NCBI GenBank assembly: GCA_043788365.1
Contig: JAYVTZ010000013.1
Coordinates: forward strand, 11,071-75,070
Reading direction: 5' to 3'
DNA: 64,000 nucleotides
Source of the DNA: Burkholderiaceae bacterium
GTDB lineage: Bacteria; Patescibacteriota; Saccharimonadia; Saccharimonadales; AQU-01
This document shows, in pieces, positions 15,289 through 60,720 of the stretch. Position numbers and translations under genes: made by a program. The number at the start of each line of letters is the position of its first letter. Position 1 is the stretch's first letter. Under the pieces are notes generated by a model, which saw nothing but the letters and a program-made list of their open reading frames with translations, did not search any database and had not been told where the DNA came from.

Positions 15289-15302
15289 TAAGAAAGAATA
15301 AT

Positions 15303-15845: not shown

Positions 15846-15918
15846 CGATGTGACTAAGACGGTTGTATAAGAGGGGTCGAGTCTTATATAATACGCTTAA
15901 GCTAAATGTGGAGAATTA

Positions 15919-16431
15919 ATGATTACGCTAGGCATTGGCATCAAGATACGACAAGCACTGGGTTCAATAATGATTGTTTTTGGACTAAGCCTTATCCTTA
16001 TTGGCGCAAACCAAACTTTAATTAGACATCAGGACGAGCTAGCTTCTAAGCAACTCATAAATCAGAATCAAGTTTTAGGTGCAACATATATTGCCAAAGA
16101 TTACTCAGTCTATGTTAATAAAGTCGTCTCTCATCCAACAGATATTGCTAATAGTGGGCGGCGTTATTCGGCAGATGTAACACTAGTTAACACCTCAAAC
16201 CTAGCCCTAGATTATTCACCTGGTCTACAGCTGAGTTTGGTAGATGGAACTGGGCAAATCTATGCACCGACTGCAAAATATCTGGCTGATGGTCAGACGC
16301 TAGGTGGTAGCCTTGCCCCAGGTCAAAACACGACATCGACTATCGACTTTGATTTGCCTCAGGCGTCTCAACCAACCGAACTACAGTTTCAAGAAGATTT
16401 AACCAGCAAAGTAACCAAAATCAAATTATGA
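15919..16431 (+). CDS. membrane-anchored DUF4352-like protein
   Basis: N-terminal TM, then YSADVTLVNTSNLALDYSP...LVDGTGQIY...LAPGQNTTSTIDFDLP. Confidence 0.55.
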   Translation: MITLGIGIKIRQALGSIMIVFGLSLILIGANQTLIRHQDELASKQLINQNQVLGATYIAKDYSVYVNKVVSHPTDIANSGRRYSADVTLVNTSNLALDYSPGLQLSLVDGTGQIYAPTAKYLADGQTLGGSLAPGQNTTSTIDFDLPQASQPTELQFQEDLTSKVTKIKL

Positions 16432-20295: not shown

Positions 20296-20337
20296 TAGTA
20301 GTAGGCAATTGAACAGGGCAAATGGTATATTATTGGC

Positions 20338-21234
20338 ATGGCAAAAAAGTCTAAAAAAGCACAGAAGATAAAAGTTACTAAACTTTCAGTTGTCGATGAG
20401 CAGCTCAGAAAAACGCCAACACCAAAAAAAGCAAAAGTCGAAGAAGCGCCTCAACCGACAGAAGAACTAGGCAACAAACAGTTTAGACATTGGAACTTTT
20501 TTGTGTCACTAGTTTTAATTGCCCAGGCCATAACTCTGACTATCTATGCACAATCTCAGAGCTTGGCGATAACTAGTAATTTTTTGAACACTGATAGTTT
20601 AGCCTCACAGAGTTCCAAGCGGGTTGTCTTAGCACCAGCTGTGCGCCGAGTCTTTGAGCTCGATCTTAAAGTAGTCGTAATTATATTTTTGCTGTCCTCG
20701 GCCTTCTTTCATCTACTAATTGCCACTTATTCTCGTAAAAAAACCGACGATGATATAAAACACGGCGTAAACCGACTACGATGGATAGATTATGGCCTGA
20801 CGTCTGGGCTGATGTTTGTCGCCATCAGTCTAATTAACGGTGTATATGACCTCGCAACCATGGTACTGATTTTTGCCTTAGTACTCTCGCTGCATTTATA
20901 CGGTTATCAGCTCGAAATGCAAAAACTATCCGGCGTAAAGGTTACCTACCATAATCTAGTCGGTCTACTTGGCTCTGGTGGTGCGATTTGGCTAGCTATT
21001 GCAATCTACCTAAAGAACTCAATTATTTATGGTCACGTTGCCGGCAATTACGTTTACTATATCGATGGCTCGATTTTTATTGTTACTTTGGCGCTGGCGA
21101 CCAACGCCTATTTGTCATACAAAAGTCATGGTCCGTGGCAGCGCTATTTTTTCACCGAGAAAGTCTACATCTTACTTAGTCTAGTCGCTAAATCGGCGCT
21201 GGCTTGGCAAATATATTACGGTCTGCTCAGGTAG
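20338..21234 (+). CDS. heliorhodopsin (7-TM retinal protein)
   Basis: Seven hydrophobic segments. The C-terminal helix YILLSLVAKSALAWQIYYG matches, from memory, the TM7 Schiff-base-lysine motif SLVAKSALAWQIF of heliorhodopsin 48C12. NRLRWIDYGLTS aligns with its TM3 RWVEYSLSS. Confidence 0.85.
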   Translation: MAKKSKKAQKIKVTKLSVVDEQLRKTPTPKKAKVEEAPQPTEELGNKQFRHWNFFVSLVLIAQAITLTIYAQSQSLAITSNFLNTDSLASQSSKRVVLAPAVRRVFELDLKVVVIIFLLSSAFFHLLIATYSRKKTDDDIKHGVNRLRWIDYGLTSGLMFVAISLINGVYDLATMVLIFALVLSLHLYGYQLEMQKLSGVKVTYHNLVGLLGSGGAIWLAIAIYLKNSIIYGHVAGNYVYYIDGSIFIVTLALATNAYLSYKSHGPWQRYFFTEKVYILLSLVAKSALAWQIYYGLLR

Positions 21235-23841: not shown

Positions 23842-23993
23842 TTTCTCGTTTCTTGTAACTAGTATTTGAATGTCCATTTTAAAGAAAAGCATATTCTACT
23901 ACATAAAATACCAGAAACTAGCTCCTAGCTACTAGATACGAATATCTGAATAGGTTACAATATATAGAACTGCTAAGAGAGGTTACTATTCTT
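23842..23993 (+). repeat. CTAG-rich intergenic element, copy B
   Basis: TAGTTTCTCGTTTCTTG resembles TAGTTTCTGGTTTTCTTG of copy A. It contains CCAGAAACTAGCTCCTAGCTACTAGATACGAATATCT (23911-23947). Confidence 0.55.
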
Positions 23994-27895: not shown

Positions 27896-28039
27896 TGAGC
27901 AGTATCTAGTAGCAGCGGCTAGTGTCTTGTATAACCGCCCTCGACTTTACTAGCTGCTTTTTATATGAGCGACTAGGCACTAGCTACCGTATACTGCCTT
28001 ATACGAGCAACTAGAAACTAGATACGATATACTAATACC
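27896..28039 (+). repeat. CTAG-rich intergenic element, copy C
   Basis: GTATCTAGTAG at 27902-27912 (7 nt after the stop) and CAACTAGAAACTAGATACGATATACT at 28009-28033. The two ends are inverted copies of each other. Confidence 0.6.
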
Positions 28040-29125: not shown

Positions 29126-29127
29126 TT

Positions 29128-29190
29128 TTGCCCCACTTTTGTCTCGGCAAAAAGTTACCACCAAGCCCCCTAAAATGCTATGGATGCATA
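29128..29190 (+). repeat. mini copy of the structured repeat (both ends, no core)
   Basis: TTGCCCCACTTTTGTCTCGGCAAAAAG plus CCAAGCCCCCTAAAATGCTATGGATGC match the two ends of copy 38080-38294. Confidence 0.6.
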
Positions 29191-29320
29191 CGTATCAGTG
29201 AGTGTAATTTGGATTTTTGAGCTGTTACTTTAGGGACATAGTATCGCATATTAGTATCTTATAAGGTAATCATAAGAGAAGACATATATTTAAAAATCCA
29301 ACCGACCATTGATATCTACT

Positions 29321-30397
29321 TTAGTCTGTAAAGACCTTATCACGATGGTATTGTAAATAATTTTTTCTTTCTTGGTTTAGTAAAAATTCATCTATTCTAT
29401 ATACGCTTAGATGATCTTTAAGTCTTTTCGATAAGTTTCTTGTTTGAGAAATTACTATGGTGCCATCATCAGAGAAGCTAATATATCCTTGGTCAAAAAG
29501 CTGATCTATGTTTCTACTTAATAACAGACCATTATTCTCATCAAAGGCTTCTTCCTCAGTTGAATGAGAATAGGGTTTTATGTGGCTAGCTATTAAGACA
29601 GGGTAGTCTAACTTTTCAACCATACAAACAACAGCATCGTAATATTTGTTTGACTCTGATATTAGCTGATTTTTATAAAGCCTCTGTAAGTAACTGTCTC
29701 TTAGTCCACTTACGGATTTGCCATCTGTTAGTATGGACTTTGATCTTGAGTCGCTACTGAAATATACGGCATCTTGCCTTACAGCAAGATCATCCAGTTG
29801 ATCTAAGAGGTTCCACAAATATCTTATTTGATTGTACTTTCTTTCAACAAATCCAATTGATCGTATATATGTGACTCCGGAATCTATCATTTCTCTTGTG
29901 GCAAAATCTTGTTTTGCTAACGAAACATTAATAGTCATTAGCGCGACAGCTTCTTCTTTTGTCAGTCTGCCGTCAGCAGCCGTTAGAGTGTTAACAAAAA
30001 AATTTATTTCGTTAACGTCTGAATCATTAGTAAATGATCGTCCAAAACTAGAGTTCGAATATACTATCTTAGAGAATATAGTACCTTTTTCCGATGGATC
30101 TGACGTAGATAGAAAATCCTTAGTATGTTTATGGTATCCTGCTAAGGCAGAATTCACGAAGCCTAGCTTGATAAATTGATTGATAGCTTTACGCGTTGAA
30201 ATAAGTTGAATAGGGTAATTCTTAACTAGTTCATGTTGTAGTTTATCATATGCATTACCAGCATTTGAAGATATTTCTTGTCTATTATCGTCAATGAAAT
30301 TAACAATTATTCCTAGACTACCGTTAAACCCATCTCCTGTTATGTCTGAGTAAGCTAGAGTAAGTTTCCAGTATGATTCGTACGTTTGGTCTGTCAT
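29321..30397 (-). CDS. restriction endonuclease candidate with a C-terminal HNH (HNH_2-like) nuclease domain
   Basis: The C-terminus reads VLIASHIKPYSHS...ENNGLLLSRNIDQLFDQGYISF. It is the last gene of the operon, 2 nt after the adenine methyltransferase. Confidence 0.6.
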   Translation of the reverse strand: MTDQTYESYWKLTLAYSDITGDGFNGSLGIIVNFIDDNRQEISSNAGNAYDKLQHELVKNYPIQLISTRKAINQFIKLGFVNSALAGYHKHTKDFLSTSDPSEKGTIFSKIVYSNSSFGRSFTNDSDVNEINFFVNTLTAADGRLTKEEAVALMTINVSLAKQDFATREMIDSGVTYIRSIGFVERKYNQIRYLWNLLDQLDDLAVRQDAVYFSSDSRSKSILTDGKSVSGLRDSYLQRLYKNQLISESNKYYDAVVCMVEKLDYPVLIASHIKPYSHSTEEEAFDENNGLLLSRNIDQLFDQGYISFSDDGTIVISQTRNLSKRLKDHLSVYRIDEFLLNQERKNYLQYHRDKVFTD

Positions 30398-30399
30398 AA

Positions 30400-31431
30400 C
30401 TAAGATCTCTCGGCGATAAACAAATATTCAGAATTCTTGTGCTTGTTTAATTTCCCTGTAATTTTATATGTGTGTTTCACTTCTACTACTTTAACACTTT
30501 TAGCGTGTTTACTTATAATGTCTATCAAAACATCCTTAGATGGAAAAGAAGACGTATTGTAACTAAGCATCCAATATTTGAAATTCCCAAGACTTGAAAA
30601 AAGTTTTTCGAATAGCTCGATGGAAGCGTCTTTATTGATGAAGTTGTTATTAAAGGGAGGAATAACCTCCCCTTGAATATAGTTATCCAAAAAGCTATAG
30701 AACTCATAATAGTTATTCATAGTGCCGGTATAGGGTGGATCAATATACACAAGGTCTGCAGACAATTCTTTTATTGCATCGAATGCATCCATATTTACTG
30801 AAACGTTTTCTTGACCATTATCAAAAACAGCCTTATTATACTGCTGAATATTAGATTTGAAGTGGTGTTCGAACGATTCATTATGATATGCCCTGCGTCT
30901 TTTATACTTAGCGTAGCTATACTCCTCGTCTCTTAATTGCTCTACCTTTTCCCATTTAATATTGAACCTAGAATAGGGCATTTTTCTAATCAACGACCTT
31001 CGCATTAATATTAGGGCAAGCGACTTTTTATACTCAGAACTCAAGTGTCGAATGTTTTCTCTGTATAGGTCGAGCTGTTCGCATTCATTGGGATAGAATA
31101 ATTTCCCAGCGTAATTACTATACACAAAGCCCCTAAATGGCTTACCTTTAAATATTAAATCTACGTCACTATCGGTAAGAGTTTCTCTATCGTTTTCAAT
31201 CAGCGCCCTACCTATCTCGTAGTTAATCCTCATGATATCGTTAGATATAACTGACATACCGCGCCTCTTATAGGCGTATGCAACTGAGGCTCCACCCGAG
31301 AATAAGTCAAGTACGGTATTAACCCCTGAAGGGGTGTTGTCGCATATCCAGTCAGTAATTTTTTCTTTATTTCCGATGAAGTTTACTGTCGGGTACTTGA
31401 TTCTACTTGCAGGATGATTTTTACTTATCAT
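30400..31431 (-). CDS. DNA N6-adenine methyltransferase (Dam/D12-class-like)
   Basis: DLFSGGASV (motif I) and VYIDPPYTG (motif IV, DPPY). Confidence 0.8.
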   Translation of the reverse strand: MISKNHPASRIKYPTVNFIGNKEKITDWICDNTPSGVNTVLDLFSGGASVAYAYKRRGMSVISNDIMRINYEIGRALIENDRETLTDSDVDLIFKGKPFRGFVYSNYAGKLFYPNECEQLDLYRENIRHLSSEYKKSLALILMRRSLIRKMPYSRFNIKWEKVEQLRDEEYSYAKYKRRRAYHNESFEHHFKSNIQQYNKAVFDNGQENVSVNMDAFDAIKELSADLVYIDPPYTGTMNNYYEFYSFLDNYIQGEVIPPFNNNFINKDASIELFEKLFSSLGNFKYWMLSYNTSSFPSKDVLIDIISKHAKSVKVVEVKHTYKITGKLNKHKNSEYLFIAERS

Positions 31432-32425
31432 GAACTGAACCGGTGCTCATCATATGTCTAATATTTTTCGCTAAATGATAACCAAGGAGCGGTGGGACTG
31501 AGTTACCTACTTGTTGCTGCTGGGAGATTACCGAGCCTTCAAAAATAAAATTATCTGGATACGTTTGTAAGCGAGCAAGTTCTCTGACTGTGAGCGCTCG
31601 ATTATCTCGGTAGTGAAAAACTTTACGCATGTCCCCGGTAATGCAAACTGAGGGCTCTGCACTCGAGTACCGTATGTACTTTCTTATATCGCCAGAAGTT
31701 GGTCTAATTGCTTTAGGAATATCATTGCGAGTACCTCCATCTGTGACAAAACTCATTTTATGTAGCATTTGGTCCGTATGATTCATGGCAACATGATTAG
31801 GAATGCATGAATTTTCTCCAGATTTCAATCTGGGCAAGTCGTCGATTGCATCTTTTACAGAGACAGGTTTTGAACCTAATGGTTTAGGGAATATTATATT
31901 GACATCAAGTTTTGTTCCAATAAATATAGTTCTTCTGCGTTGTTGAGGCACACCATAATCAGCGGTATTTATGACTTTAACTTTTACGTTATAACCGATT
32001 TTTTTAAATGTTTCTAATATCTCGGCGCGTGTTTTCCCCTGGTTATGCGTATATAGTCTAGCTACATTTTCCATTATGAAGAAGTCTGGACTTACGGCAT
32101 CAACTACTCTAGCAAACTCCTTAAACAAATAGTTTCTGGGGTCGTCCACAAACTTTCGACCAATACTCCCAGCCATGCTGAACCCCTGGCATGGTGGACC
32201 GCCAACAACCACATCAATCTTTTGTTTCTTAATCAATGTGCGAATCTCTTCAGTGGTTAATTCAGTTATATTCTTCTTGATGAGTGTGTGAGATGGAAAA
32301 TTACGTGAGTATGTCTTATTGAACGTCTGATCAAAATCCACCGAAAAAACATTAGCAAAGGCTGCTTGCTCGAAACCGAGAGTTAACCCTCCCGAACCAC
32401 TAAATAGATCTATAAATGTTGGCAT
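31421..32425 (-). CDS. DNA cytosine-5 methyltransferase
   Basis: DLFSGSGG, GGPPCQGFS, ENV, QRRRT and GNSVPP are the canonical m5C motifs I, IV, VI, VIII and X. Confidence 0.9.
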   Translation of the reverse strand: MPTFIDLFSGSGGLTLGFEQAAFANVFSVDFDQTFNKTYSRNFPSHTLIKKNITELTTEEIRTLIKKQKIDVVVGGPPCQGFSMAGSIGRKFVDDPRNYLFKEFARVVDAVSPDFFIMENVARLYTHNQGKTRAEILETFKKIGYNVKVKVINTADYGVPQQRRRTIFIGTKLDVNIIFPKPLGSKPVSVKDAIDDLPRLKSGENSCIPNHVAMNHTDQMLHKMSFVTDGGTRNDIPKAIRPTSGDIRKYIRYSSAEPSVCITGDMRKVFHYRDNRALTVRELARLQTYPDNFIFEGSVISQQQQVGNSVPPLLGYHLAKNIRHMMSTGSVHDK

Positions 32426-32656
32426 AACTTACTCTGATTTTAGCACAGATTATGATGGTCAGGCACGTTGTTATGAAGAATTCATTTAATTGTAATGTTC
32501 GAAATAACCACACGCATTTGAGCGAAAAAATAGAGTGCCTTACTTTATTTACATCTGGTGTTGAAGCTGTAAAATACCATATGCCACAACAGTAATATTA
32601 GACATAAGTATTCAGAATTATGCTATATATTAATTAATCACAAGAGCTATCATAAA

Positions 32657-33097
32657 ATGATGAATATTTACTTAGACATTGATGGGGTGTTGGTGGCAAA
32701 TGATTATAATGCCGCTAATTATTCTGCGGAGTTTATTGAGTACGTATTGACCAAGTTCCCAGATACAACCTACTGACTGACCACTCACTGCCAAGGGGAT
32801 GCTAGTCGACCGATTAAGGATATTGGCCACTTGTTTGATGCGAAAACTATTGATTATATGAAGATGATTAAGCCAACAACGTGGCTAGAATCACCAAATA
32901 AAACATCGGCCATAGATTTTAGTCAGCCCTTTTTATGGTTTGATGATGATTCTTTTTACGGCGAGAGGCAAGAGTTAATCAAGAACAATGTACTAGATAA
33001 TTGGATAGAAGTTGACCTGCGCAAAGATCCAGACCAACTACTAAAATTCATTACCAGTTTCCCGATTGCTTCTGAAATGGTGCAAGAAGGCAATTAA
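32657..33097 (+). pseudogene. HAD-like hydrolase gene interrupted by one in-frame TGA
   Basis: The frame from ATG 32657 reads MMNIYLDIDGVLVAN...PDTTY, then TGA (32774-32776), then LTTHCQGD... and continues into track ORF 32831..33097. DIDGVL is HAD motif I. Confidence 0.55.
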
Positions 33098-33105
33098 AAA
33101 AAATA

Positions 33106-33343
33106 GCCCGCTTCCAGCGGGCATACATGGTCTTTGGTGGGGCTTGGCTGCTTCCTGATACGGACTCGTCAAACTGACAACTATTGGAGCGGACTCCGCC
33201 ATCAAACTCTATTATGAATCTTTGCTGGCCGACTGAAAGGAGTCGTCTGCTCTTGTTGTCAGGCTTGACTGGAGAACAGTACCCAAGAAGTAGACACCGC
33301 CCCTCGGCTTTTGCGCTATCTTTTGCCGAAACAAAAGTGTCAG
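33106..33343 (-). repeat. structured repeat, copy 1 (candidate ~240-nt ncRNA or mobile-element end)
   Basis: GC hairpin GCCCGC-TTCCA-GCGGGC (33106-33122), nested helices, and a terminal hairpin CTTTTG-CCGAAA-CAAAAG. On the minus strand, TGaATAATT lies just outside the outer end and the GC hairpin is followed by T8. Confidence 0.6.
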
Positions 33344-33387
33344 AAATTATTCATTTTTCTTTGCTAAATTAGTGCTAAAATATGACT

Positions 33388-36695: not shown

Positions 36696-36800
36696 ACTCG
36701 GATATTCGCCTTAGCAAGTTTTCAATTTAGTAGCGTAGCCATAAGCATGTATGCGATAATGCTTGGGAGTCAAAATAAATAGAGATTTTTTGGAGGCTAT

Positions 36801-38048
36801 ATCAAGACACTGCCACTTCCACCACAAGATGGTGCCCAACCGAAGCGACGTAAAAGATGGTTTAGATTTGTTGAAACGGCCAAGTTACTAGTTTTTGGCA
36901 TAGTAGTTTTTTGGTTTGGGCTAACCGTCGGACAGGGAAAGATTGTCTTTGGCCGCGACGCAATCCTACATAAGCCAGTCGCTAAAGGCCTGCCCAATAA
37001 TCTCGACTACACGGCTGTCGAGCAGGTCTATGACAGCCTGAAAGATAACTACGACGGTCAATTAGACAGTGCCAAGCTACTTGATGGTCTCAAAGAGGGC
37101 CTAGCTAAATCAACTGGCGACCCATACACTCAGTACTTTAATCCAAAAGCCGCCAAAGACTTTAAAGAGCAATTAACAGGCACATTCACTGGTATCGGTG
37201 CCGAACTGAGCAAGGACACGACCAATAATGTCATTGTTGTCGTCTCGCCGATTGCTGGTTTCCCAGCCGATAAAGCAGGACTAAGGCCAAAAGATGTTAT
37301 TGCCCAAATCGACGGTAAGTCGGCGGTTGATTTGTCGATTAATGACGCAGTCAGTAAGATCCGCGGCGCTAAAGGCACTACCGTCAAACTCACGATTATT
37401 CGAGACGGTAAGCAACAAATTGAAATGAGCATTGTTCGAGATGAAATAACGATTCCAAGCGTGACCTCAAAAGTTTTGGACGGCAACATTGGCTACATCA
37501 AGATAGTTAGATTCGCCGAAGACACGGCACTATTATCTAGCCAGGCGGCAGATAAGTTGAAATCACAAAATGTAAAAGGCATTGTACTCGATTTGCGGTC
37601 TGACCCAGGCGGTCTACTCGATGCTGCGGTATCGGTCTCAAGCTTGTGGCTAGACAATCAAACCGTTTTGACAGAACGCCGCGGTGGAGTCATCATCCGC
37701 ACCTATGCCTCCAAGGGCATCCCGACTCTAAAAGGCATACCAACGATTGTGCTAATTGATGCTGGTAGCGCCTCGGCTAGTGAAATCACTGCCGGAGCCT
37801 TGCACGACAATAAGGTCGCAACTCTAGTCGGCGTTAAGAGTTTTGGTAAGGGCAGTGTCCAGCAAATCGTTAACTTTAACGACGATAGCTTCTTAAAGGT
37901 TACGATTGCCCGTTGGTACACGCCAGATGGCAAGAATATCGATAAGGAGGGCATTAGCCCTGATACCGAGATTAAGCGGACTGATGATGACTACAAAACT
38001 GGTAACGATCCTCAGCTCGACTTTGCTACCGCACAACTCAAGAAATAG
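36801..38048 (+). CDS. ctpA: C-terminal processing (S41) peptidase; start codon non-canonical or uncertain
   Basis: The frame is open from 36783. It encodes a TM segment, TGDPYTQYFNP, FTGIGAEL, a PDZ domain (AGLRPKDVIAQIDG), GSASASEI (Ser) and SFGKGSVQ (Lys). The track shows only 37332..38048 because no ATG, GTG or TTG occurs in frame upstream. GGAGG (36792-36796) precedes ATC at 36801. Confidence 0.8.
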   Translation: MKTLPLPPQDGAQPKRRKRWFRFVETAKLLVFGIVVFWFGLTVGQGKIVFGRDAILHKPVAKGLPNNLDYTAVEQVYDSLKDNYDGQLDSAKLLDGLKEGLAKSTGDPYTQYFNPKAAKDFKEQLTGTFTGIGAELSKDTTNNVIVVVSPIAGFPADKAGLRPKDVIAQIDGKSAVDLSINDAVSKIRGAKGTTVKLTIIRDGKQQIEMSIVRDEITIPSVTSKVLDGNIGYIKIVRFAEDTALLSSQAADKLKSQNVKGIVLDLRSDPGGLLDAAVSVSSLWLDNQTVLTERRGGVIIRTYASKGIPTLKGIPTIVLIDAGSASASEITAGALHDNKVATLVGVKSFGKGSVQQIVNFNDDSFLKVTIARWYTPDGKNIDKEGISPDTEIKRTDDDYKTGNDPQLDFATAQLKK

Positions 38049-38079
38049 TTTTCTTTAGTCCGCTAAAGCGGACTTTAAT

Positions 38080-38294
38080 TTGCCACTTTTGTCTCGGCAA
38101 AAGATGGCGCAAAACCGAGGGGCGGTGTCGACAACTCGATATAGCTTCCAAACAAAAAGACAACACACCCTCCGGAACTCATCCTAACGGATTTCAAACA
38201 GTCCTCGGGAATTAGTTTGTTGTCTTTTTGATTGAATCTATTTCGGGTCGCCGTCAAGCCCCCATAAGACCATGGATGCCCGCTGGAGGCGGGC
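38080..38294 (+). repeat. structured repeat, copy 2 (same ends, different core)
   Basis: TTGCCACTTTTGTCTCGGCAAAAG...GGGGCGGTGTC...CAAAAAGACAACA/TGTTGTCTTTTTG...CAAGCCCCC...GCCCGC-TGGAG-GCGGGC. Confidence 0.6.
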
Positions 38295-38375
38295 GATTAC
38301 ATAACAGCTAAAACTACCAATTCACATAATCCCCATCTGTTTGGGGACGAACCCCAACCCACATAATAAATATGA

Positions 38376-38597
38376 TTAATGATTGGCTGCGGACTTGTAT
38401 AACACTCTGATCACGTACCTAACGCCTTTGTATAGTTGTAAGTAGAAAAGTACGGGTAGCGAATACGTTAGTAGGCCTAAGATAAGAGAGAACCGATTAT
38501 GTCTGTCTGGTAATATATTCCGCTCATCAAGCATGCGATACGACTCTTTAAAGCTCTCATAAGTCTTAGCTGGTAATTCTTTATAATTAATCGACAT
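38376..38597 (-). CDS. hypothetical 73-aa single-TM protein (cassette cargo)
   Basis: Hydrophobic stretch FSLILGLLTYSLPVLFYLQL. On the minus strand, TGgTATCAT ends 6 nt before the ATG. Confidence 0.45.
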   Translation of the reverse strand: MSINYKELPAKTYESFKESYRMLDERNILPDRHNRFSLILGLLTYSLPVLFYLQLYKGVRYVIRVLYKSAANH

Positions 38598-38710
38598 AAG
38601 TGTATGATACCATCTAAATAATAAAACTAGCCCATGACTCCTGGTCTGCTATCCCACCCTACGCACTTGTTGCCAGGGGATATTCACCTATATTTTTAAT
38701 TTATAAAATT

Positions 38711-38968
38711 GCCCGCCTCCAGCGGGCATCCTTGGTATTAGAGGGGGCTTGGCTGCTTCCTGATACATGTCTCGTCAAACTGACAACTTCTGCAGTGGAC
38801 TCAGCCATCAAACTCTATTTTGAAACTTTGATGGCCGACTGTAAGGAGTCGTCCACTGCGTTGTCAGGCTTGACAGGAGACTGTATCAAGAAGCAGACAC
38901 CGCCCCGAGTTTTTGCGCCATCTTTTGGCGGTCCAAAAGTGGCAAAGAGTAGTCTGCTTTAGCGGACT
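38711..38968 (-). repeat. structured repeat, copy 3
   Basis: By eye, roughly four-fifths identical to copy 1, with compensatory changes in helices. GC hairpin at 38711-38727. Confidence 0.6.
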
Positions 38969-39109
38969 AAAATAGACCTATCTTAAATTATAATTGAGGT
39001 TTATATCAGAGAACCAGTTTGCAGAGTTGCATATTTTACACTTGCCATAAGCGTTGCATCTAGGGTAGTATCTATAATGTAAAGTTCAAAACGAGGGGTT
39101 GTATAAGAG

Positions 39110-40714
39110 GTGGCAAAGCCTACTAAGTATATTTTTGTAACTGGTGGGGTGCTTTCCGGATTAGGAAAGGGTATTACCGCCGCTTCAATTGGCAATCTCT
39201 TAAAGGCCCGCGGCCTAAAAGTAAACATTCAAAAGTGTGACCCGTATCTTAACGTCGATGCGGGTCTTTTAAATCCTAGAGAGCACGGTGAGTGTTTTGT
39301 GACTAAAGACGGCGCCGAAACTGACCTCGATCTTGGGCATTATGAGAGATTTTTAGACCAAGAATTAACATCGTCCAGCAGCCTAATGAGTGGACGTGTT
39401 TTATTACAAGTTATTCAAGACGAACGGGCCGGTAAATACGACGGCGAAGACGTACAAATTATTCCACATTTAACTGCTGCAATTCAGAAATATATTGTTA
39501 AGGCTGGCGAAGGCTTTGACGTCCATATAGTGGAAATCGGTGGTACTGTCGGAGACTACGAATCACTCAGCTTTATCGAAGCAATCCGCGAAATGAGTCT
39601 GAAAGTGGGTCAGGAAAATTGTTTGTACGTCCATGTGGTTTATTTGCCATTCCTCGGCGCTAGTCAAGAGACTAAAACTAAGCCAGCCCAGAACTCTGTT
39701 CGTGAACTACGTGGCCTTGGCATTGCACCTGATATTTTGGTAGGACGTAGCGAAAAGAAGGCTAATAACGGTGTTAAAAATAAGTTAAGTCTGTTTTGTG
39801 GTGTGCCAGAAGAAGCGATCGCATTGTTACCAAACGCGTCGTCGATTTATGAAGTCCCTTTGACGCTAGAAGATACCGGCATTGCCGACGTGATTTGTAA
39901 GAAGTTAAGGTTACGCCATAAGAAACCAGACCTAAAAACTTGGCGCTCGGTCGTCAAGAAGGCGACTACCTCGCACAAGAATAAGGTCACGGTTGGAGTA
40001 GTTGCTAAGTATATGGATAACACCGATACCTACATGTCGGTTTTTGAAGCGCTGCGCTCAGCCGCACTATGGAATGATGTCGAACTCAAAATAAAATGGA
40101 TCGACGCCGAAAAACTTAAAAAAGAAAAAGATGTCGAAAAAGCCCTGACAAATATTGATGGTATTGTTGTGCCCGGTGGCTTTGGTACCCGTGGTCTAGA
40201 GGGTAAAATCTTGGCCGCCCAATACTCACTAAATAAGAAATTGCCATATCTTGGTCTGTGCTTGGGCCTACAAATGGGAGTAATCGCTGCCGCTCGTAAT
40301 GCTGGTATCAAGGACGCTACTTCCGAAGAGATGAATCCTGGCGGCAAAGACATGGTCATAAACACCATGGTTGATCAAAAGGGCAAAGAAAACACTGGTG
40401 GCACTATGCGTCTTGGTAATTATCCATGCGTGATTGAAAAGGGTAGCTTGGCGGCTAAAGTTTATAAATCAACAAATATTGTCGAACGCCATCGCCATCG
40501 CTACGAGTGCAATAACGACTATCGTGACCAATACGAGTCTTGGGGCATCCGCCCAGTCGGCAAGTCACCAGATGGCCACCTAGTAGAGATAATTGAAGGT
40601 ATCGACCACCCATTCTTCTTAGCTAGTCAATTCCACCCAGAGTTTTTGTCACGACCGAACCGTCAGCACCCGATGTTTGATGGCTTCATCCAGGCCAGCA
40701 AGCACAAGTCGTGA
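39110..40714 (+). CDS. pyrG: CTP synthase
   Basis: KYIFVTGGVLSGLGKG, and a GATase domain with GLCLGLQ and HRHRYE. Confidence 0.95.
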   Translation: MAKPTKYIFVTGGVLSGLGKGITAASIGNLLKARGLKVNIQKCDPYLNVDAGLLNPREHGECFVTKDGAETDLDLGHYERFLDQELTSSSSLMSGRVLLQVIQDERAGKYDGEDVQIIPHLTAAIQKYIVKAGEGFDVHIVEIGGTVGDYESLSFIEAIREMSLKVGQENCLYVHVVYLPFLGASQETKTKPAQNSVRELRGLGIAPDILVGRSEKKANNGVKNKLSLFCGVPEEAIALLPNASSIYEVPLTLEDTGIADVICKKLRLRHKKPDLKTWRSVVKKATTSHKNKVTVGVVAKYMDNTDTYMSVFEALRSAALWNDVELKIKWIDAEKLKKEKDVEKALTNIDGIVVPGGFGTRGLEGKILAAQYSLNKKLPYLGLCLGLQMGVIAAARNAGIKDATSEEMNPGGKDMVINTMVDQKGKENTGGTMRLGNYPCVIEKGSLAAKVYKSTNIVERHRHRYECNNDYRDQYESWGIRPVGKSPDGHLVEIIEGIDHPFFLASQFHPEFLSRPNRQHPMFDGFIQASKHKS

Positions 40715-40751
40715 CGTTGATAATTAAATTATAGTAGGGTAGTATTTAGAT

Positions 40752-41162
40752 ATGGACGAACAAACCCCCGCTGCAGCGCCAGCACAACCAAATAACAAGA
40801 AAATATTATTAGTCGAGGATGACGAAGCTCTAGCAACAGTCTATATGGCTCGACTCGAGGCCGAAGGCTTTACCCTTAAGCGTGTGCCAAATGGTGAAGA
40901 TGCTCTAGCTGCTGCACTGGCTTTCCATCCTGATTTAATTTTGCTCGATGTCATGATGCCAAGAATCAACGGCTTTGACGTACTAGATATTTTACGTAAC
41001 ACTCCAGAAACCGCCAATGTCCGCATTATTATGCTGACTGCTCTAAGTCAAGATGCCGACGTTCAACGTGCTCGCTCGCTTGGTGTCGATGATTATCTTG
41101 TTAAGTCTCAAGTTGTTATCGCCGACGTCGTTACTCGTATCAAGCAACACCTTGGGCTCTAA
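40752..41162 (+). CDS. stand-alone response-regulator receiver domain (canonical Asp)
   Basis: LLVEDDE, LILLDVMMP (Asp), MLTA, LVKS. Confidence 0.8.
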   Translation: MDEQTPAAAPAQPNNKKILLVEDDEALATVYMARLEAEGFTLKRVPNGEDALAAALAFHPDLILLDVMMPRINGFDVLDILRNTPETANVRIIMLTALSQDADVQRARSLGVDDYLVKSQVVIADVVTRIKQHLGL

Positions 41163-41243
41163 GATAAAGACCCCCTACATTGACATTACTTAGTTCTTAT
41201 GCTAATATATATTTAGTTTAATCTAAAACAAAAAGGATAAGCA

Positions 41244-41546
41244 ATGGAACGAATATTAAATCAAGGAAAACAAGAAATGGTTGGCGGCATGGCACCCGAA
41301 GCTGCACTACAACCGATTATGGATAGCGTACCAGGCGTCGAAAGAGTACCGGATATCGCAGCGTTACCAGACACTATTGAGCCAGCATTAGGTGAAAGGG
41401 GTAACCCGGTCGTAGTTGAAAACAGTGGTTTTATGGGAGACCCATCGCGAGTTATTGGTCATCCTTCAAATCCAAATAGCGCCATGACGCAGGCTATAGC
41501 CGAGTCATTGACATCCGTTCAAACTCCGCCCTCAGCTGGACAATAA
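41244..41546 (+). CDS. hypothetical 100-aa protein
   Basis: ORF with AAAGGA upstream. No recognised motif. Confidence 0.4.
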   Translation: MERILNQGKQEMVGGMAPEAALQPIMDSVPGVERVPDIAALPDTIEPALGERGNPVVVENSGFMGDPSRVIGHPSNPNSAMTQAIAESLTSVQTPPSAGQ

Positions 41547-41560
41547 GTTAAACAAGAAAT

Positions 41561-41597
41561 AAATAAACCACCGCCATAATGTCGGTGGTTTATTTAT
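41561..41597. terminator. bidirectional intrinsic terminator between convergent genes
   Basis: AACCACCG (41566-41573) / CGGTGGTT (41583-41590), flanked by an A-run and a T-run. Confidence 0.7.
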
Positions 41598-41612
41598 AAT
41601 AAATCGCTATTT

Positions 41613-41885
41613 TTAGACTACAGTTACTTCAGTACGACCAGTGCTGGCGCCAGTGAAGCGCTTAACGCGGCGAACTTTGTATTCAACGACACCGTCGCGG
41701 TTAGCAAAAATCGTGTAGTCACGACCAAGGCTAGTGCCGACACCAGAACGCTTAGTTAGACCAACTTGGCGAATGATAACTTGACCGGTTTTAACTTTTT
41801 GGCCACCAGATACTTTAACGCCTAGTCTTTGACCGGGACTGTCTCTATTATTTTTACTGGTTCCACCAGCTTTGACATGTGACAT
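41613..41885 (-). CDS. rpmA: 50S ribosomal protein L27
   Basis: MSHVKAGGTSKNNRDSPGQRLGVK matches the L27 N-terminus. There is no Prp-type propeptide. Confidence 0.95.
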   Translation of the reverse strand: MSHVKAGGTSKNNRDSPGQRLGVKVSGGQKVKTGQVIIRQVGLTKRSGVGTSLGRDYTIFANRDGVVEYKVRRVKRFTGASTGRTEVTVV

Positions 41886-42051
41886 CTAATTTATTCCTTA
41901 CTGCGGCCTGTCTCAGGCGACGCATTACTTCGTTGCCGACTCCGGTTCGCGCTCACCGTACGTTCCTGTACGGCTCACTTGCGGTCCTCGTCGTCGCCTA
42001 GTACTGCATTCACCTGAGACAGGCCTTAACAGTGTTAGGCAGAAGGGCAAC
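41886..42051 (-). promoter_or_regulatory. 165-nt structured leader upstream of rpmA (candidate r-protein autoregulatory element or small ncRNA)
   Basis: A 13-bp long-range stem (GGCCTGTCTCAGG 41905-41917 with CCTGAGACAGGCC 42013-42025) encloses GGCGACG/CGTCGCC and the hairpin CCGTAC-N6-GTACGG (41956-41973). Confidence 0.5.
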
Positions 42052-43263
42052 TCACTTTTTCTGTAAAACTACTAGTTCACGGGCGACGATTTGGCCATCA
42101 CGGTGATAAACCAGATCTTTATTGTCGACGTGCACAAAACTCAATCGATTGTACCCTATATCTGTTAAAGAATCAAGTAGGGGCAGGTGTTTTATGGTGC
42201 CACGGACCGACCAGGCCGGCACTGCTAGGCATAATCTAAAACCTGATTCAATTTGAGGAGCCAGGTTTTGTAAAAACTTTTTATGGATGTAGTTACAGTC
42301 GGTAATTATCTCTTTTAGGTCGTTATCTGACGGACTAGAGGATAGCGCTCGACCCAAATATGTCTCGCCAGCGACAACCTCAAACTTTTGTGACCACGCG
42401 GTTTGCATGGCATCACCAACTTCTGTCCGCCACGATACTTCTGGGATTGCAAAATTTTTACCTAGCCAAGTCATATTTTCGTCGCTGTATTCGATCATGC
42501 GTGGTTCTAGGTCGGTTCCGTAGGCGTCATAACCCTGGAGCAGGGCTTCTTGGAGCATGACTCCGGTGCCGCAAAATGGATCGAGCACAGTTTTATGTTT
42601 TGGCTCGTGTGGGCCGCAAACGTCGCCAGCTGGTTCGGCTGGCCCGACCGCTAGATTCAAGATTGTTTGAGCCAGTTTTGGTGGCAGCATGCCGACACGG
42701 GCATCGCGCATCGGCCGACCTTGGTCACGCTTGGCATAGGCTTCGATATTTTGTTCGGCGATGTTTTGGGCTAAGATAGTTTTGTTGCCGTCACGGACAA
42801 AAATAAGTTCCCAACCCAGCGCGCTAGTTAGCTGATTGTGTAGGACTTGGGCGCTGTTGAGAGCCGACTCATTATTTGGAATAACCCGAATCGAGCGACC
42901 ACTTTTTTTGATAATCTTTTTTAGCGACAGAGCAGTGTAGTTTATCTGCTTAACACCTGGGTTTAGGCCATAAACACTCAGACCTAGCTTCATTTTGCCT
43001 TCGGGCAAATCGGTGGCGTGGGGTACGACGTTATCTTCTAGAAACTTTTGCAGCTTTGACCACTCGGTAGTCTCTAAAATAGTTAAAACCTTGCAAAACT
43101 TAACCGTGCCGCCGAGCCGGCTAAAGTCGATGTCTTTTGGCTCAAGATTAAGCAGGGCAGCGTAACTAGCAATCGGACGTAAATTAGTGGCGCCGTATAA
43201 ACTTTCTAGCTCAGCCAGACCTAGCGCTGGTTGGCGCCCCAAGATACATAGTGTTTGAATCAT
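42052..43263 (-). CDS. class I SAM-dependent methyltransferase (UPF0020/Trm11-like, probably RNA)
   Basis: Motif I is VLDPFCGTGVMLQEA followed by YGTDLEP. Motif IV is atypical (GETYLG rather than D/NPPY). Confidence 0.5.
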   Translation of the reverse strand: MIQTLCILGRQPALGLAELESLYGATNLRPIASYAALLNLEPKDIDFSRLGGTVKFCKVLTILETTEWSKLQKFLEDNVVPHATDLPEGKMKLGLSVYGLNPGVKQINYTALSLKKIIKKSGRSIRVIPNNESALNSAQVLHNQLTSALGWELIFVRDGNKTILAQNIAEQNIEAYAKRDQGRPMRDARVGMLPPKLAQTILNLAVGPAEPAGDVCGPHEPKHKTVLDPFCGTGVMLQEALLQGYDAYGTDLEPRMIEYSDENMTWLGKNFAIPEVSWRTEVGDAMQTAWSQKFEVVAGETYLGRALSSSPSDNDLKEIITDCNYIHKKFLQNLAPQIESGFRLCLAVPAWSVRGTIKHLPLLDSLTDIGYNRLSFVHVDNKDLVYHRDGQIVARELVVLQKK

Positions 43264-43270
43264 TGGCTAT

Positions 43271-43295
43271 ATTATACCCTGTAATGCGTTATAAT
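43271..43295. promoter_or_regulatory. back-to-back -10 boxes for divergent leaderless genes
   Basis: ATTATA (43271-43276, TATAAT on the minus strand) lies 7 nt from the minus-strand ATG at 43263. TATAAT (43290-43295) lies 8 nt from the ATG at 43304. Confidence 0.5.
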
Positions 43296-43303
43296 GTAGA
43301 GCA

Positions 43304-44353
43304 ATGAGCGAAACCCACTTCTTAAGACGTAACTGGAAAATGATATTTAATATCATTACGATTGGCGCCATGATTGGCCTAGGCGTAGCGCTAAGGCACC
43401 AGATACTCACGACGATTGAAAATTTTGGCAAAGTTAATGCTTGGGCAATTCTACTGATGATTCCGCTCGAAGCCTGGAATTATGATGCCTATGCTAGGAT
43501 GTACCGGTCGTTCTTTAAAACTCTAGGTAACGAGACTACCTACCGCGAAATGTATAAAGTGTCGCTAGAGTTAAATTTAATTAACCATCTTTTCCCAAGC
43601 GGTGGAGTGTCAGGTTTTTCGTACTTTAGTCTAAGACTTAAGAAGCTTGGAATTTCGACGGGCAAGGCAACACTGGTCCAAACCATGCGTTTTGTATTTT
43701 TGTTTTTGTCATTTGAGATTTTATTATTCTTCGGTATCATTGCTCTCGCCATTGGTGGTCACGTCAATAGCTTCACAATTTTGGTGGCTGGCTCAATTGC
43801 GACATTCTTGATAATGAGTACAATCGGTCTGGCGTTCATAGTCAGTAGTTTGAACCGTATCAATACTTTCTTTGCCGCTATTACCAAATTCTTTAACCGA
43901 ATTATTCACATCGTTAGACCTAAGCACCCCGAGACAATTAATGTCGCCAAAGTTAAGCATATGTTTACCGACCTGCACGAAAACTACTTAATCTTGCGTG
44001 CTGATTATCGTCAGCTACTAAAACCGTTTTGGTTCGCACTGATTGCCAACTTTACCGAACTAGTGACCGTCTACATGGTTTATATCGCATTTGGTCATTG
44101 GATAAATCCTGGTGCCTTGGTGCTCGCTTACGCCGTAGCCAACATCGCCGGACTAATATCGGTACTACCTGGCGGTATTGGTATCTATGAAGCCATTATG
44201 ACGGCCGTTTTAGCTGCGGCCGGGATATCACCAGCCATTAGTTTGCCAGTAACTGTTATGTACCGCGTGATTAACATCGCCATTCAAGTCATCCCGGGCT
44301 ACTATTTTTATCACCGCGCTTTTCGGGGTAAGCCAACCAGTGGACGACAATAG
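43304..44353 (+). CDS. UPF0104 / lysylphosphatidylglycerol-synthase-TM-like flippase-type membrane protein
   Basis: Polytopic membrane protein with GLISVLPGGIGIYEAIMTAVL, typical of the family. Confidence 0.6.
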   Translation: MSETHFLRRNWKMIFNIITIGAMIGLGVALRHQILTTIENFGKVNAWAILLMIPLEAWNYDAYARMYRSFFKTLGNETTYREMYKVSLELNLINHLFPSGGVSGFSYFSLRLKKLGISTGKATLVQTMRFVFLFLSFEILLFFGIIALAIGGHVNSFTILVAGSIATFLIMSTIGLAFIVSSLNRINTFFAAITKFFNRIIHIVRPKHPETINVAKVKHMFTDLHENYLILRADYRQLLKPFWFALIANFTELVTVYMVYIAFGHWINPGALVLAYAVANIAGLISVLPGGIGIYEAIMTAVLAAAGISPAISLPVTVMYRVINIAIQVIPGYYFYHRAFRGKPTSGRQ

Positions 44354-60701: not shown

Positions 60702-60720
60702 TCGTATACAATTAATAGTG

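What the first reader, a model, noticed from the sequence alone, without database searches (positions are those of the whole stretch)
38058..38968. 0.9-kb foldback cassette: ~240-bp inverted structured repeats around a leaderless 73-aa membrane ORF
Directly after the ctpA stop come a small hairpin (GTCCGC-TAAA-GCGGAC, 38058-38073) and repeat copy 2. A 416-bp AT-rich centre follows, then repeat copy 3 inverted and an inverted copy of the small hairpin (38952-38967). The centre carries ORF 38376-38597 on the minus strand. It encodes one TM helix and has TGgTATCAT 6 nt upstream of the ATG, so it uses the host's leaderless promoter style and is probably expressed. Small single-TM proteins carried as mobile cargo are often toxins, holin-like proteins or phage-exclusion factors. 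That interpretation is speculative here.
Basis: partly seen in the sequence, partly recalled or inferred. Interest (0 to 1): 0.6.

Follow-up and report, generated by a model that had tools for sequence, protein, structure and literature searches.

The report
Convergent structured repeats bracketing variable DNA
The 0.9-kb unit is a tail-to-tail pair of a roughly 250-base, hairpin-rich repeat found only in a small group of Saccharibacteria, where such pairs tend to bracket variable, probably acquired DNA; the small membrane-protein gene proposed in its centre has no relative anywhere and is doubtful.

Summary
The sequence features are real and at the stated coordinates. The two arms belong to a multi-copy family of about 235-260 nt. 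I found 3 full copies and 1 internally deleted copy in this window, and 16 full copies overall in three 'Ca. Saccharimonas'-like MAGs and related metagenome contigs.

Each copy has the same layout: 5' hairpin, linker, long imperfect hairpin, linker, terminator-like 3' hairpin. Pairing is kept through compensatory changes. No Rfam family matches.

Tail-to-tail pairs recur at orthologous sites. Two sister genomes have the pair between ctpA and pyrG with almost nothing between the tails. About 15 more distant relatives have only 60-140 nt there and no repeat.

The space between the tails varies:
- nearly empty in the sister genomes;
- a 164-aa P-loop gene in another lineage;
- in this window, about 0.4 kb of unique AT-rich DNA.

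A second bracket in the window, made of a truncated copy and copy 1, encloses a three-gene restriction-modification island.

The 73-aa ORF has a host-style leaderless promoter motif. It has no homologue among 1.84 billion representative proteins and lacks host-like codon usage.

So a bracket around variable cargo is supported, but a toxin or holin cargo is not. How the repeats move or act is unknown. My best guess is that they are mosaic intergenic repeats acting as inward-facing terminators and recombination substrates.

The parts
38058..38073 (+). HP0: small GC hairpin GTCCGC-TAAA-GCGGAC followed by TTTAATTT, terminator-like for ctpA. It lies 7-8 nt before the repeat's 5' hairpin.
   Evidence: terminator-like site 38057-38074. 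Equivalent small hairpins with other sequences sit at the same distance before copies in L003, L004 and L034.
38071..38312 (+). Repeat copy 2, type A long stem. Components: 5' hairpin 38082-38108; long hairpin 38119-38262; 3' hairpin GCCCGCTGGAGGCGGGC 38278-38294.
   Evidence: Covariance model 232 bits, E 1.6e-68. Fold z -4.3. Alignments.
38295..38708 (.). AT-rich centre (39% GC). It is unique: no similarity to sister loci, phages or plasmids.
38376..38597 (-). Orphan 73-aa ORF with one hydrophobic stretch (FSLILGLLTYSLPVLFYLQLY). Its coding status is doubtful.
   Evidence: No homologue. Codon score -0.05 per codon against +0.2 to +0.46 for host genes, and an ORF of at least 73 aa in 2-4% of shuffles.
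38604..38612 (-). TGGTATCAT, an extended -10-like motif 6 nt before the ORF's ATG (leaderless style).
   Evidence: The same arrangement precedes the genes starting near 19783, 20323, 33373, 33717 (ftsE), 51080, 55284 and 58441.
38693..38954 (-). Repeat copy 3, type B long stem. Components: 3' hairpin plus T-run 38710-38728; 5' hairpin 38917-38943.
   Evidence: Covariance model 215 bits. Fold z -11.1. Terminator-like site. A Logan contig of the same strain breaks inside it at 38915.
38952..38967 (-). Inverted copy of HP0 (GTCTGC-TTTA-GCGGAC on the plus strand).
   Evidence: arm I1 runs to 38971.
33088..33352 (-). Repeat copy 1, type B. 3' hairpin plus T8 at 33106-33122. It forms the right-hand bracket of the restriction-modification island.
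   Evidence: Covariance model 196 bits..
29127..29190 (+). Repeat copy 4, internally deleted. The 5' hairpin CCACTTTTGTCTCGGCAAAAAGT is joined directly to the 3' linker CCAAGCCCCCTAAAATGCTATGGATGC. It starts 2 nt after the prfB stop and forms the left-hand bracket of the restriction-modification island.
   Evidence: Covariance model 15.4 bits, E 0.006. nhmmer matches both halves: model positions 6-25 and 182-211. Sequence.
29321..32428 (-). Three-gene restriction-modification island lying between copies 4 and 1: HNH_2 endonuclease, D12 N6-adenine methyltransferase, C5 cytosine methyltransferase.
   Evidence: Pfam E-values 5.9e-12, 5.3e-31 and 9.8e-77. Relatives have prfB and ftsE 27-130 nt apart.

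Best explanation
The unit is not one cassette. It is a tail-to-tail (convergent) pair of a clade-restricted, mosaic, structured intergenic repeat, with lineage-specific filler between the two tails.

Shown:
- Each repeat has the same layout: optional small hairpin, 5' hairpin, linker, long imperfect hairpin of about 145-165 nt, linker, terminator-like 3' hairpin.
- The pair was gained between ctpA and pyrG in one sub-clade of Saccharibacteria.
- The gap between the tails differs between lineages.
- Modules are shuffled between copies.

Inferred:
- The repeats act as inward-facing intrinsic terminators or 3'-end structures. They would stop transcription from the flanking housekeeping genes at the edge of the slot.
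- Because the repeats are long and conserved between loci and species, they act as recombination substrates. In naturally competent Saccharibacteria they could serve as portable homology arms. This would explain why DNA between two tails turns over: nearly empty, a P-loop gene, a restriction-modification island, or the 0.4-kb centre here.
- The 73-aa ORF is most likely a chance or very young ORF that happens to lie behind a promoter-like motif.
For: Family and structure:
- There are 16 full copies at 196-278 bits, plus diverged copies in L098, L100 and L102.
- On the 16-copy alignment, 96.3% of cells are paired, against 35-49% when partners are slid.
- On that alignment, 18 pairs show changes on both sides, and 0 of 500 shuffles reach this.
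- Compensatory variants occur in all three helices. The 5' hairpin is GCCAC/GAUGGC or GUUAC/GUAAC. The 3' hairpin is GCCCGC/GCGGGC or AUGAUUG/CAAUCAU.

Terminator role:
- Hairpin plus T-run sites are called for copies 1 and 3.
- All four single copies in relatives (L002, L004, L005, L034) lie 16-71 nt after a stop codon, on the same strand as that gene.
- Each of the four is followed by a -10-like motif (TGnTAnnnT, TATAAT or TAGTAT) upstream of the next gene.

Pair conserved, centre not:
- L007 and L010 have ctpA, pair, pyrG with no centre.
- L006 and L009 have a pair at the comM/infC site, with only 13 nt between the two 3' hairpins.

Gain in one sub-clade:
- The ctpA-pyrG spacer is 60-140 nt, with no element, in L014, L016-L021, L023, L024, L101, L103-L105 and L109.

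Variable slot:
- L098 and L100 have a pair enclosing a 164-aa P-loop ORF with TATAAT-N6-ATG.
- Its 64%-identical homologue in L102 is again followed by an inward-facing copy.
- In the window, copy 4 and copy 1 enclose the restriction-modification island.

Shuffling:
- Stem types A, B and B-hybrid, the two 3' hairpin types and the 5' hairpin variants occur in all combinations.
- Left and right modules are swapped between orthologous pairs.

Competence:
- Natural competence with integration by flanking homology has been shown in cultured Saccharibacteria (PMC10633639).

ORF doubtful.
Against: - No transcription data exist. No conserved promoter precedes the repeats, so any RNA-level role for right-hand copies, which face away from any upstream gene, is unproven.
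- G-U versus A-C mismatches in the long stem show no strand bias (38 versus 26, from copies that are not independent). The selected hairpin could therefore equally be DNA.
- Copy 2's 3' hairpin lacks a good T-run (GATTACAT).
- The strongly conserved apical motif GCGGAACU...CA(G/A)ACAGUCCUCGGC (L098, L102) suggests a specific ligand. A plain terminator does not need one.
- The prfB-ftsE and ctpA-pyrG spacers also hold variable genes without any repeat. Examples are the 165-aa and 183-aa ORFs in L094 and the 153-aa ORF in L104. Variability at these junctions therefore does not depend on the repeats.
- The ORF is longer than 96-98% of shuffles and has a host-style promoter motif, so it may be real.
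Confidence: 0.55

Rival explanations
1. The repeats are genes for a new class of trans-acting structured small RNA of about 230-250 nt. Each would have its own intrinsic terminator. Copies 2 and 3 would be two convergent paralogues, and the centre would be spacer.
For: - Covariation occurs in three helices, and G-U pairs are conserved on the terminator-bearing strand. For example, column pair 67-268 is U-G in all 16 copies.
- The 3' hairpin plus T-run lies on one strand only.
- The unpaired linkers are highly conserved.
- The apical motif GCGGAACU...CAGACAGUCCUCGGC is conserved around a hairpin tip that varies in sequence but stays paired. This looks like a ligand-binding site.
- No Rfam family matches, so it would be new.
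Against: - No conserved promoter is present. Several copies begin 14-31 nt after the upstream stop codon, or 7 nt after a terminator-like hairpin, which leaves no room for one.
- Overall there is no strand bias in wobble versus A-C mismatches.
- Copies are gained and lost, truncated, carry nested insertions and exchange modules as repeats do.
- Type B copies lack the apical motif.
- The family is restricted to a narrow clade.
Confidence: 0.22
2. One reading: a 0.9-kb foldback mobile element whose ~240-bp terminal inverted repeats carry an expressed single-pass membrane peptide as cargo. The peptide would be a toxin, a holin-like protein or an exclusion factor.
For: - The inverted arms and the insertion relative to most relatives are real.
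- A host-style leaderless promoter motif sits before the ORF.
- The ORF is longer than 96-98% of shuffles.
- Other repeat pairs do bracket real genes.
Against: - The pair exists at the same site without the centre.
- No target-site duplication flanks any pair.
- No transposase, integrase or reverse transcriptase was found in the window ORFs scanned or in the annotated related loci.
- The ORF has no homologue among 1.84 billion representatives.
- The ORF has no host-like codon bias.
- The element does not occur in the viral, phage or plasmid collections.
Confidence: 0.1
3. The repeats are non-autonomous derivatives of a hairpin-ended (IS200/IS605-like) transposon or its guide-RNA scaffold. They would insert next to a T-rich motif or just after terminator hairpins.
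For: - There are no terminal inverted repeats and no target duplication at single copies.
- Imperfect hairpins lie at both ends.
- The conserved left flank is nTT(A/T)T immediately before the 5' hairpin.
- The left flank is variable DNA next to a conserved structured scaffold.
- The 5' hairpin lies a fixed 7 nt after a host terminator hairpin in at least 5 copies.
- A possible loop-linker pseudoknot exists (CUCGG with CCGAG). This was read from the sequence and not tested.
Against: - No TnpA, TnpB or IscB-like gene is present in the window or in the loci fetched.
- Rfam's HEARO and other models give nothing even at E up to 10.
- The 5' and 3' hairpins are unlike each other.
- Tail-to-tail pairs overlap in a way that leaves no room for separate right ends.
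- Copies sit at orthologous sites across species rather than at scattered new sites.
Confidence: 0.08
4. A type I toxin-antitoxin-like module. The ORF would encode a small hydrophobic toxin controlled by antisense or convergent transcripts from the repeats.
For: The ORF is small and has one hydrophobic helix. It lies between two inward-facing transcription-competent structures.
Against: - The repeats share no complementarity with the ORF or its 5' region.
- Both repeats end in terminator-like hairpins before reaching the ORF.
- The ORF is not conserved.
- The same repeat pairs occur with no ORF or with unrelated genes.
Confidence: 0.03

Closest known systems
Enterobacterial ERIC, REP/BIME and pneumococcal BOX elements (interspersed, structured, mosaic intergenic repeats)
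   Same: - Multi-copy, non-coding and strictly intergenic.
- Usually lie just after a stop codon.
- Imperfect palindromes that fold into long stem-loops.
- Built from modules that occur in different combinations.
- Carry internal insertions and deletions at fixed points (for example the nested ~60-nt insert in L010, and the deleted copy 4).
- Retained at orthologous sites in related species.
   Different: - About twice as long (235-260 nt).
- Carries its own terminator-like 3' hairpin and a separate conserved 5' hairpin.
- Occurs preferentially as tail-to-tail pairs whose junction holds variable DNA.
- No sequence similarity to these families was tested or is expected.
- Found in Saccharibacteria, where my literature search found no described repeat family.
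MITE-bracketed composite elements and foldback-type elements (two copies of a small repeat flanking cargo)
   Same: - Two inverted copies of a non-coding repeat of a few hundred bases flank unrelated cargo genes.
- The same repeat also occurs alone or with nothing between the copies.
   Different: - A single copy has no terminal inverted repeats.
- No target-site duplication flanks copies or pairs.
- No cognate transposase was found.
- Pairs sit at the same chromosomal sites in different species rather than at new sites.
Neisseria 'minimal mobile elements' (variable genes between conserved flanking genes, exchanged by natural transformation and homologous recombination). Recalled from my own knowledge, not checked here.
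   Same: - Different small accessory genes, or none, occupy the same slot between conserved housekeeping genes in related genomes.
- The host group is naturally competent (PMC10633639).
   Different: - Here the slot is additionally framed by a dedicated pair of structured repeats, which could supply homology independent of locus.
- Exchange has not been demonstrated.
Type I toxin-antitoxin loci
   Same: A small hydrophobic ORF in an intergenic region, near structured and possibly transcribed elements.
   Different: - No antisense complementarity.
- The ORF is not conserved.
- The repeats occur independently of the ORF.

Membership tests
MITE / foldback transposon | Terminal inverted repeats at the two ends of the mobile unit | tested here: not met
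   In a single copy the 5' hairpin end and the 3' hairpin end are unrelated. Only the pair taken as a whole has inverted ends.
MITE / foldback transposon | Target-site duplication flanking the insertion | tested here: not met
   The flanks of pairs in the window, L006, L007 and L010, and of single copies, show no direct repeat.
MITE / foldback transposon | Cognate autonomous element or transposase with the same ends | tested here: inconclusive
   None was found in 64 kb of window ORFs scanned with Pfam, nor in the gene annotations of L094-L109. Whole genomes could not be scanned.
REP/ERIC/BOX-type intergenic repeats | Multi-copy, intergenic, imperfect palindromes able to form stable stem-loops | tested here: met
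   Copies were found in the window and in L002-L010, L034, L098, L100 and L102. All are intergenic. Fold z-scores range from -3.3 to -11.1.
REP/ERIC/BOX-type intergenic repeats | Mosaic or modular composition, with variants made by internal insertion or deletion | tested here: met
   A, B and B-hybrid stems, two 3' hairpin types and two 5' hairpin types occur in all combinations. L010 has a nested insertion and copy 4 an internal deletion.
REP/ERIC/BOX-type intergenic repeats | Lies within transcription units and is co-transcribed with the neighbouring gene | not testable with these tools
   Position is consistent: 14-71 nt after stop codons, on the same strand, for all single copies and for one member of each pair. 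No expression data are available.
Intrinsic (Rho-independent) terminator | GC-rich hairpin followed directly by a T-run on the transcribed strand | tested here: met
   Copy 1 (33122-33106, T8) and copy 3 (38728-38710) are called by the scan. The small hairpin at 38057-38074 is also called. Copy 2's hairpin has no T-run.
Any described RNA family (Rfam 15) | Match to a curated covariance model | tested here: not met
   There are no gathering-score hits in the window. Only chance-level hairpin hits appear at E up to 1-10 on the window, L006 and L098 copies.
Type I toxin-antitoxin | Antisense RNA complementary to the toxin mRNA | tested here: not met
   No inverted or direct repeat links the ORF region to the repeat arms or to anything else nearby.
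Type I toxin-antitoxin | Conserved small hydrophobic toxin | tested here: not met
   No homologue was found. One hydrophobic stretch is present.
Integron cassette / attC | Cassettes in direct orientation, each ending in an attC site, next to an integrase with attI | tested here: not met
   The repeats are convergent rather than direct, form no array, and no integrase was found in the window ORFs scanned.
IS200/IS605-type element or IscB/TnpB guide-RNA scaffold | Associated Y1 transposase or RuvC-type nuclease gene, or a match to the known scaffold RNA models | tested here: not met
   No such gene is present in the window or the fetched loci. No Rfam match appears even at E up to 10.

The most novel reading that the evidence does not exclude
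Convergent pairs of this ~250-nt structured repeat form dedicated docking slots for small accessory or defence genes in a group of Saccharibacteria. The repeats would serve two roles. They would insulate the slot as inward-facing terminators. They would also act as locus-independent homology arms, or as sites for an unidentified recombinase, so that cassettes can be swapped between slots, strains and species by natural transformation. Cassettes seen or proposed so far are a restriction-modification system, a P-loop kinase-like gene, and possibly the orphan membrane peptide. This would be a cassette-exchange system of a kind not described before, in a phylum with very few known mobile elements.
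Probability: 0.2. Interest if true: 0.7.

Novelty: new variant of a known kind. Interest (0 to 1): 0.5.

Why it matters
Saccharibacteria and other Patescibacteria have tiny genomes with very little non-coding DNA and few recognised mobile elements. A 250-nt structured repeat kept in several copies is therefore unlikely to be neutral.

If the repeat pairs really frame exchangeable gene slots, they would explain how these epibionts acquire defence genes without classical transposons or integrons. They would also mark natural 'neutral sites' for engineering these organisms, which are now genetically tractable.

If the repeats turn out to be discrete RNAs, they would be a new structured RNA class with a clearly conserved apical motif.

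For the scan itself, the practical lesson is that the proposed toxin-like ORF should not be annotated as a gene on present evidence.

Tried and rejected
- Rfam, at gathering and permissive thresholds, on the window, L006 and L098: only chance hairpin hits such as plant miRNA precursors and RyhB at 19 bits.
- Phage and plasmid BLAST of the whole unit: no match.
- Viral-contig pattern scans: three hits, all inside a phage coding sequence with no further similarity, so chance.
- Genome-contig pattern hits in Undibacterium and Comamonas: chance matches with no hairpin context.
- SRP RNA resemblance. I noticed that the 13-mer GGAAGCAGCCAAG in the type B stem is identical to part of E. coli 4.5S RNA. 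I rejected it because the segment lies in a plain helix at the stem base, there are several copies per genome, and no SRP model matches.
- Hammerhead-like CUGAUAC on the antisense strand: rejected, because the core is incomplete and Rfam gives no hit.
- Strand assignment from G-U versus A-C mismatches: inconclusive.
- Simple inversion of the whole pair interior (an invertible switch). The L006/L009 alignment rejects this: the centre stays collinear while only the long-stem modules are exchanged.
- Search for the centre or the ORF in sister loci by blastn, tblastn and tblastx: nothing.
- Exact-protein look-up of L27: it returned only the same strain, on a contig that breaks inside copy 3.
Full report
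**1. What is in the sequence**

- ctpA ends at TAG 38046-38048.
- The hairpin GTCCGC-TAAA-GCGGAC occupies 38058-38073. Its inverted copy GTCTGC-TTTA-GCGGAC occupies 38952-38967.
- The inverted repeats are 38054-38149 / 38876-38971 (96 nt, 79%) and 38259-38304 / 38701-38746 (46 nt, 85%).

The two arms are therefore alike at their outer and inner ends, but they carry different sequences in the middle. A third copy lies at 33088-33352.

Each copy folds the same way:
- a 5' hairpin (GCCACUUUUG...CAAAAGAUGGC);
- a linker (GCAAAACCGAG);
- a long imperfect hairpin closed by GGGGC/GCCCC;
- a second linker (..AGACCAUGGAU);
- a GC hairpin followed by a T-run.

Fold energies are far below shuffles, with z = -4.3, -11.1 and -3.3. 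The hairpin plus T-run sits on one strand only. This gives each copy a 'sense' strand: plus for copy 2, minus for copies 1 and 3. Copies 2 and 3 are thus convergent and tail-to-tail.

The centre (38295-38708) is 39% GC, against 44.5% for the window.

**2. The arms belong to a family**

A pattern taken from the conserved 5' part found the element in three Saccharibacteria / 'Ca. Saccharimonas' MAGs and nowhere else among 185,579 species genomes. Two further hits were chance. Viral, phage and plasmid collections hold nothing.

Profile and covariance-model searches gave 16 full copies at 196-278 bits. They also found more diverged copies in L098, L100 and L102.

On the 16-copy alignment:
- 96.3% of cells form standard pairs, against 35-49% when partners are slid;
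- 18 of 49 pairs show changes on both sides;
- no shuffle out of 500 reaches the observed values.

All three helices have compensatory variants:
- the 5' hairpin is GCCAC/GAUGGC or GUUAC/GUAAC;
- the 3' hairpin is GCCCGC/GCGGGC or AUGAUUG/CAAUCAU;
- the long stem comes in types A, B and a B-outer/A-apex hybrid.

The apical tip hairpin changes completely in sequence while staying paired. It is framed by the conserved motif GCGGAACU...UCA(G/A)ACAGUCCUCGGC.

No Rfam family matches.

Counts of G-U versus A-C mismatches in the long stem show no strand bias. The selected structure could therefore be RNA or single-stranded DNA.

**3. Comparison with relatives at the same site**

State of the ctpA-pyrG spacer:

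| Loci | ctpA identity to the window | Content of the spacer |
|---|---|---|
| L007, L010 | 78-79% | Repeat pair, almost nothing between the tails |
| L034 | 93% | One copy after a small hairpin, then unrelated genes |
| L098, L100 | 65% | Diverged pair enclosing a 164-aa P-loop (weak AAA_18) ORF that starts 6 nt after TATAAT |
| L094-L097 | 73% | Unrelated 165-aa ORF, no repeat |
| L014, L016-L021, L023, L024, L101, L103-L105, L109 | about 53-66% where measured | 60-140 nt, no repeat |

The pair is therefore a gain within one sub-clade, and the 0.4-kb centre is private to this strain.

A second orthologous site lies between comM and infC. It carries a pair in two species (L006, L009) and a single copy in a third (L005).

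In compact pairs the two 3' hairpins are only 13 AT-rich bases apart.

**4. A second bracket in the window**

The covariance model and nhmmer found a fourth copy at 29127-29190, two bases after the prfB stop. Its 5' hairpin is joined directly to the 3' linker, and the long stem is deleted.

It faces copy 1. Between them lie three minus-strand genes for an HNH_2 endonuclease, a D12 adenine methyltransferase and a C5 cytosine methyltransferase. In relatives, prfB and ftsE are 27-130 nt apart.

The homologue of the L098 cargo gene in a different genome (64% identity, L102) is again followed by an inward-facing copy.

Three independent cases thus show two inward-facing copies, or at least one, framing lineage-specific genes.

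**5. Shuffling**

Between orthologous pairs the long-stem modules are exchanged left for right. This is seen for L006 versus L009, and for the window versus L007 and L010. In L006/L009 the flanks, the 5' hairpins and the centre all stay collinear.

Module types, 3' hairpin types and 5' hairpin types occur in all combinations. This indicates frequent recombination or gene conversion between copies at the conserved junctions. It argues against a simple invertible switch.

**6. The ORF**

For:
- TGGTATCAT lies 6 nt before its ATG. The same TGnTAnnnT-N6-8-ATG arrangement precedes at least seven real genes here, including ftsE.
- An ORF this long arises in only 2-4% of shuffles of the centre.

Against:
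- No word-index homologue.
- No phmmer hit among 1.84 billion cluster representatives.
- No trace in any related locus.
- A codon-usage score of -0.05 per codon, equal to its own off-frames. Host genes, including 88-90-aa ones, score +0.23 to +0.46.

I put the chance that it is a functional gene at roughly one in three. Nothing bears on toxicity.

**7. How it most likely works**

Shown:
- a structured, mosaic repeat family;
- gain of a convergent pair at this site;
- a variable inter-tail slot;
- module exchange between copies.

Inferred:
- The repeats sit where terminators belong. All four single copies in relatives, and one member of each pair, lie 14-95 nt after a stop codon on the same strand. 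Where a gene follows, it has a -10-like motif of its own just beyond the repeat. The simplest role is as 3'-end or terminator modules, which in a pair shield the slot from both sides.
- The repeats are long and 80-100% conserved between loci and species. Saccharibacteria take up DNA and integrate it by flanking homology (PMC10633639). The repeats are therefore plausible recombination substrates, which would explain the turnover of slot contents.

Problems for this view:
- There is no promoter or expression evidence.
- The right-hand copies have no upstream gene.
- The conserved apical motif is more than a terminator needs.
- These junctions also vary without repeats, as in L094 and L104.

**8. 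Comparison with known systems**

The closest known kinds are ERIC, REP/BIME and BOX repeats. The shared traits are intergenic position, palindromic folding, mosaic build, and location after genes. MITE-bracketed composite elements are also close, since they too have two copies around cargo.

The defining MITE features, terminal inverted repeats on the unit and target duplications, were tested and not met. No transposase, integrase, reverse transcriptase or TnpB/IscB-like gene was seen.

The type I toxin-antitoxin analogy fails on complementarity and on conservation.

I found no paper describing a repeat family in Saccharibacteria.

**9. Verdict**

I class this as a new variant of a known kind, namely bacterial structured interspersed repeats. 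It has an unusual tail-to-tail 'slot' arrangement that deserves a genome-wide census.

Interest is 0.5.

Noticed in passing
window 29127-33352: A three-gene restriction-modification island (HNH_2 endonuclease, D12 adenine methyltransferase, C5 cytosine methyltransferase, plus an 88-aa ORF) sits between prfB and ftsE. It is framed by an internally deleted repeat copy (29127-29190, plus strand) and copy 1 (minus strand). Relatives have prfB and ftsE 27-130 nt apart.
   Followed up: partly
window 36783-38048: The ctpA reading frame is open and aligns with relatives over about 420 codons. It contains no ATG, GTG or TTG in its first ~180 codons, and the ORF lister starts it at 37332. It may use a non-canonical start codon, or there may be a sequence error.
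   Followed up: no
window 19783, 20323, 33373, 33717, 51080, 55284, 58441 (plus strand): At least seven genes, including ftsE, msrA-like and heliorhodopsin genes, have TGnTAnnnT 6-8 nt before the ATG. This implies leaderless mRNAs. pyrG, by contrast, has a ~40-nt leader with a GAGG motif.
   Followed up: partly
window 3326-3377, 23904-23941, 27990-28027, 62699-62733 (inverted): A short repeated intergenic motif (…CTAGCTACTAGAAACGAG… / ACTAGATACGA) recurs in four intergenic spacers. It is unrelated to the 250-nt repeat. It could be a regulatory site or a second small repeat family.
   Followed up: no
window 14758-18434: Eight copies of a coding repeat (period about 246-276 nt, motif PTxCTASGDWxGAK) lie mostly inside an 858-aa ORF (16353-18929, weak DUF5979 match). 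The ORF is flanked by three DUF4352 proteins and is probably a surface-protein cluster.
   Followed up: no
window 61761-61856: ARAGORN calls a 'tRNA-???' with a four-base anticodon inside the glycosyl hydrolase family 1 ORF (60664-61980). This is probably a false positive.
   Followed up: no
window 20305-21234: A heliorhodopsin gene (Pfam E 7e-52) is present. The relative L098 has one as well.
   Followed up: no
L010 3183-3488: The right-hand repeat copy carries a nested ~60-nt palindromic insertion (GACATGGTCTCTTTTGGCTAAGG...CCTTAAGTCAAAAGGCCACGATC) in the apical part of the long stem.
   Followed up: no
L003 56-345: The small hairpin just upstream of this copy (GCCCCGCC-ATGG-GGCGGGGC) has the same stem as the copy's own apical tip hairpin (GCCCCGCC-ATTG-GCGGGGC). 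This may be coincidence or module exchange.
   Followed up: no
L093 (Logan SRR23617268), corresponding to window 38915-44201: A public assembly of the same strain (100% identical over 5,287 nt) ends inside copy 3. Short-read assemblies evidently break at these repeats, so the repeats and their slot contents are probably under-represented in MAGs.
   Followed up: partly
L098 9880-9960 and 14690-14750 / 15740-15800: In this lineage the inverted repeat extends about 60 nt beyond the 5' hairpin (…GCAAGAGATATCAC.TTTGAT…). A solo 5'-hairpin remnant with the same outer segment lies in the prfB-ftsE spacer.
   Followed up: partly
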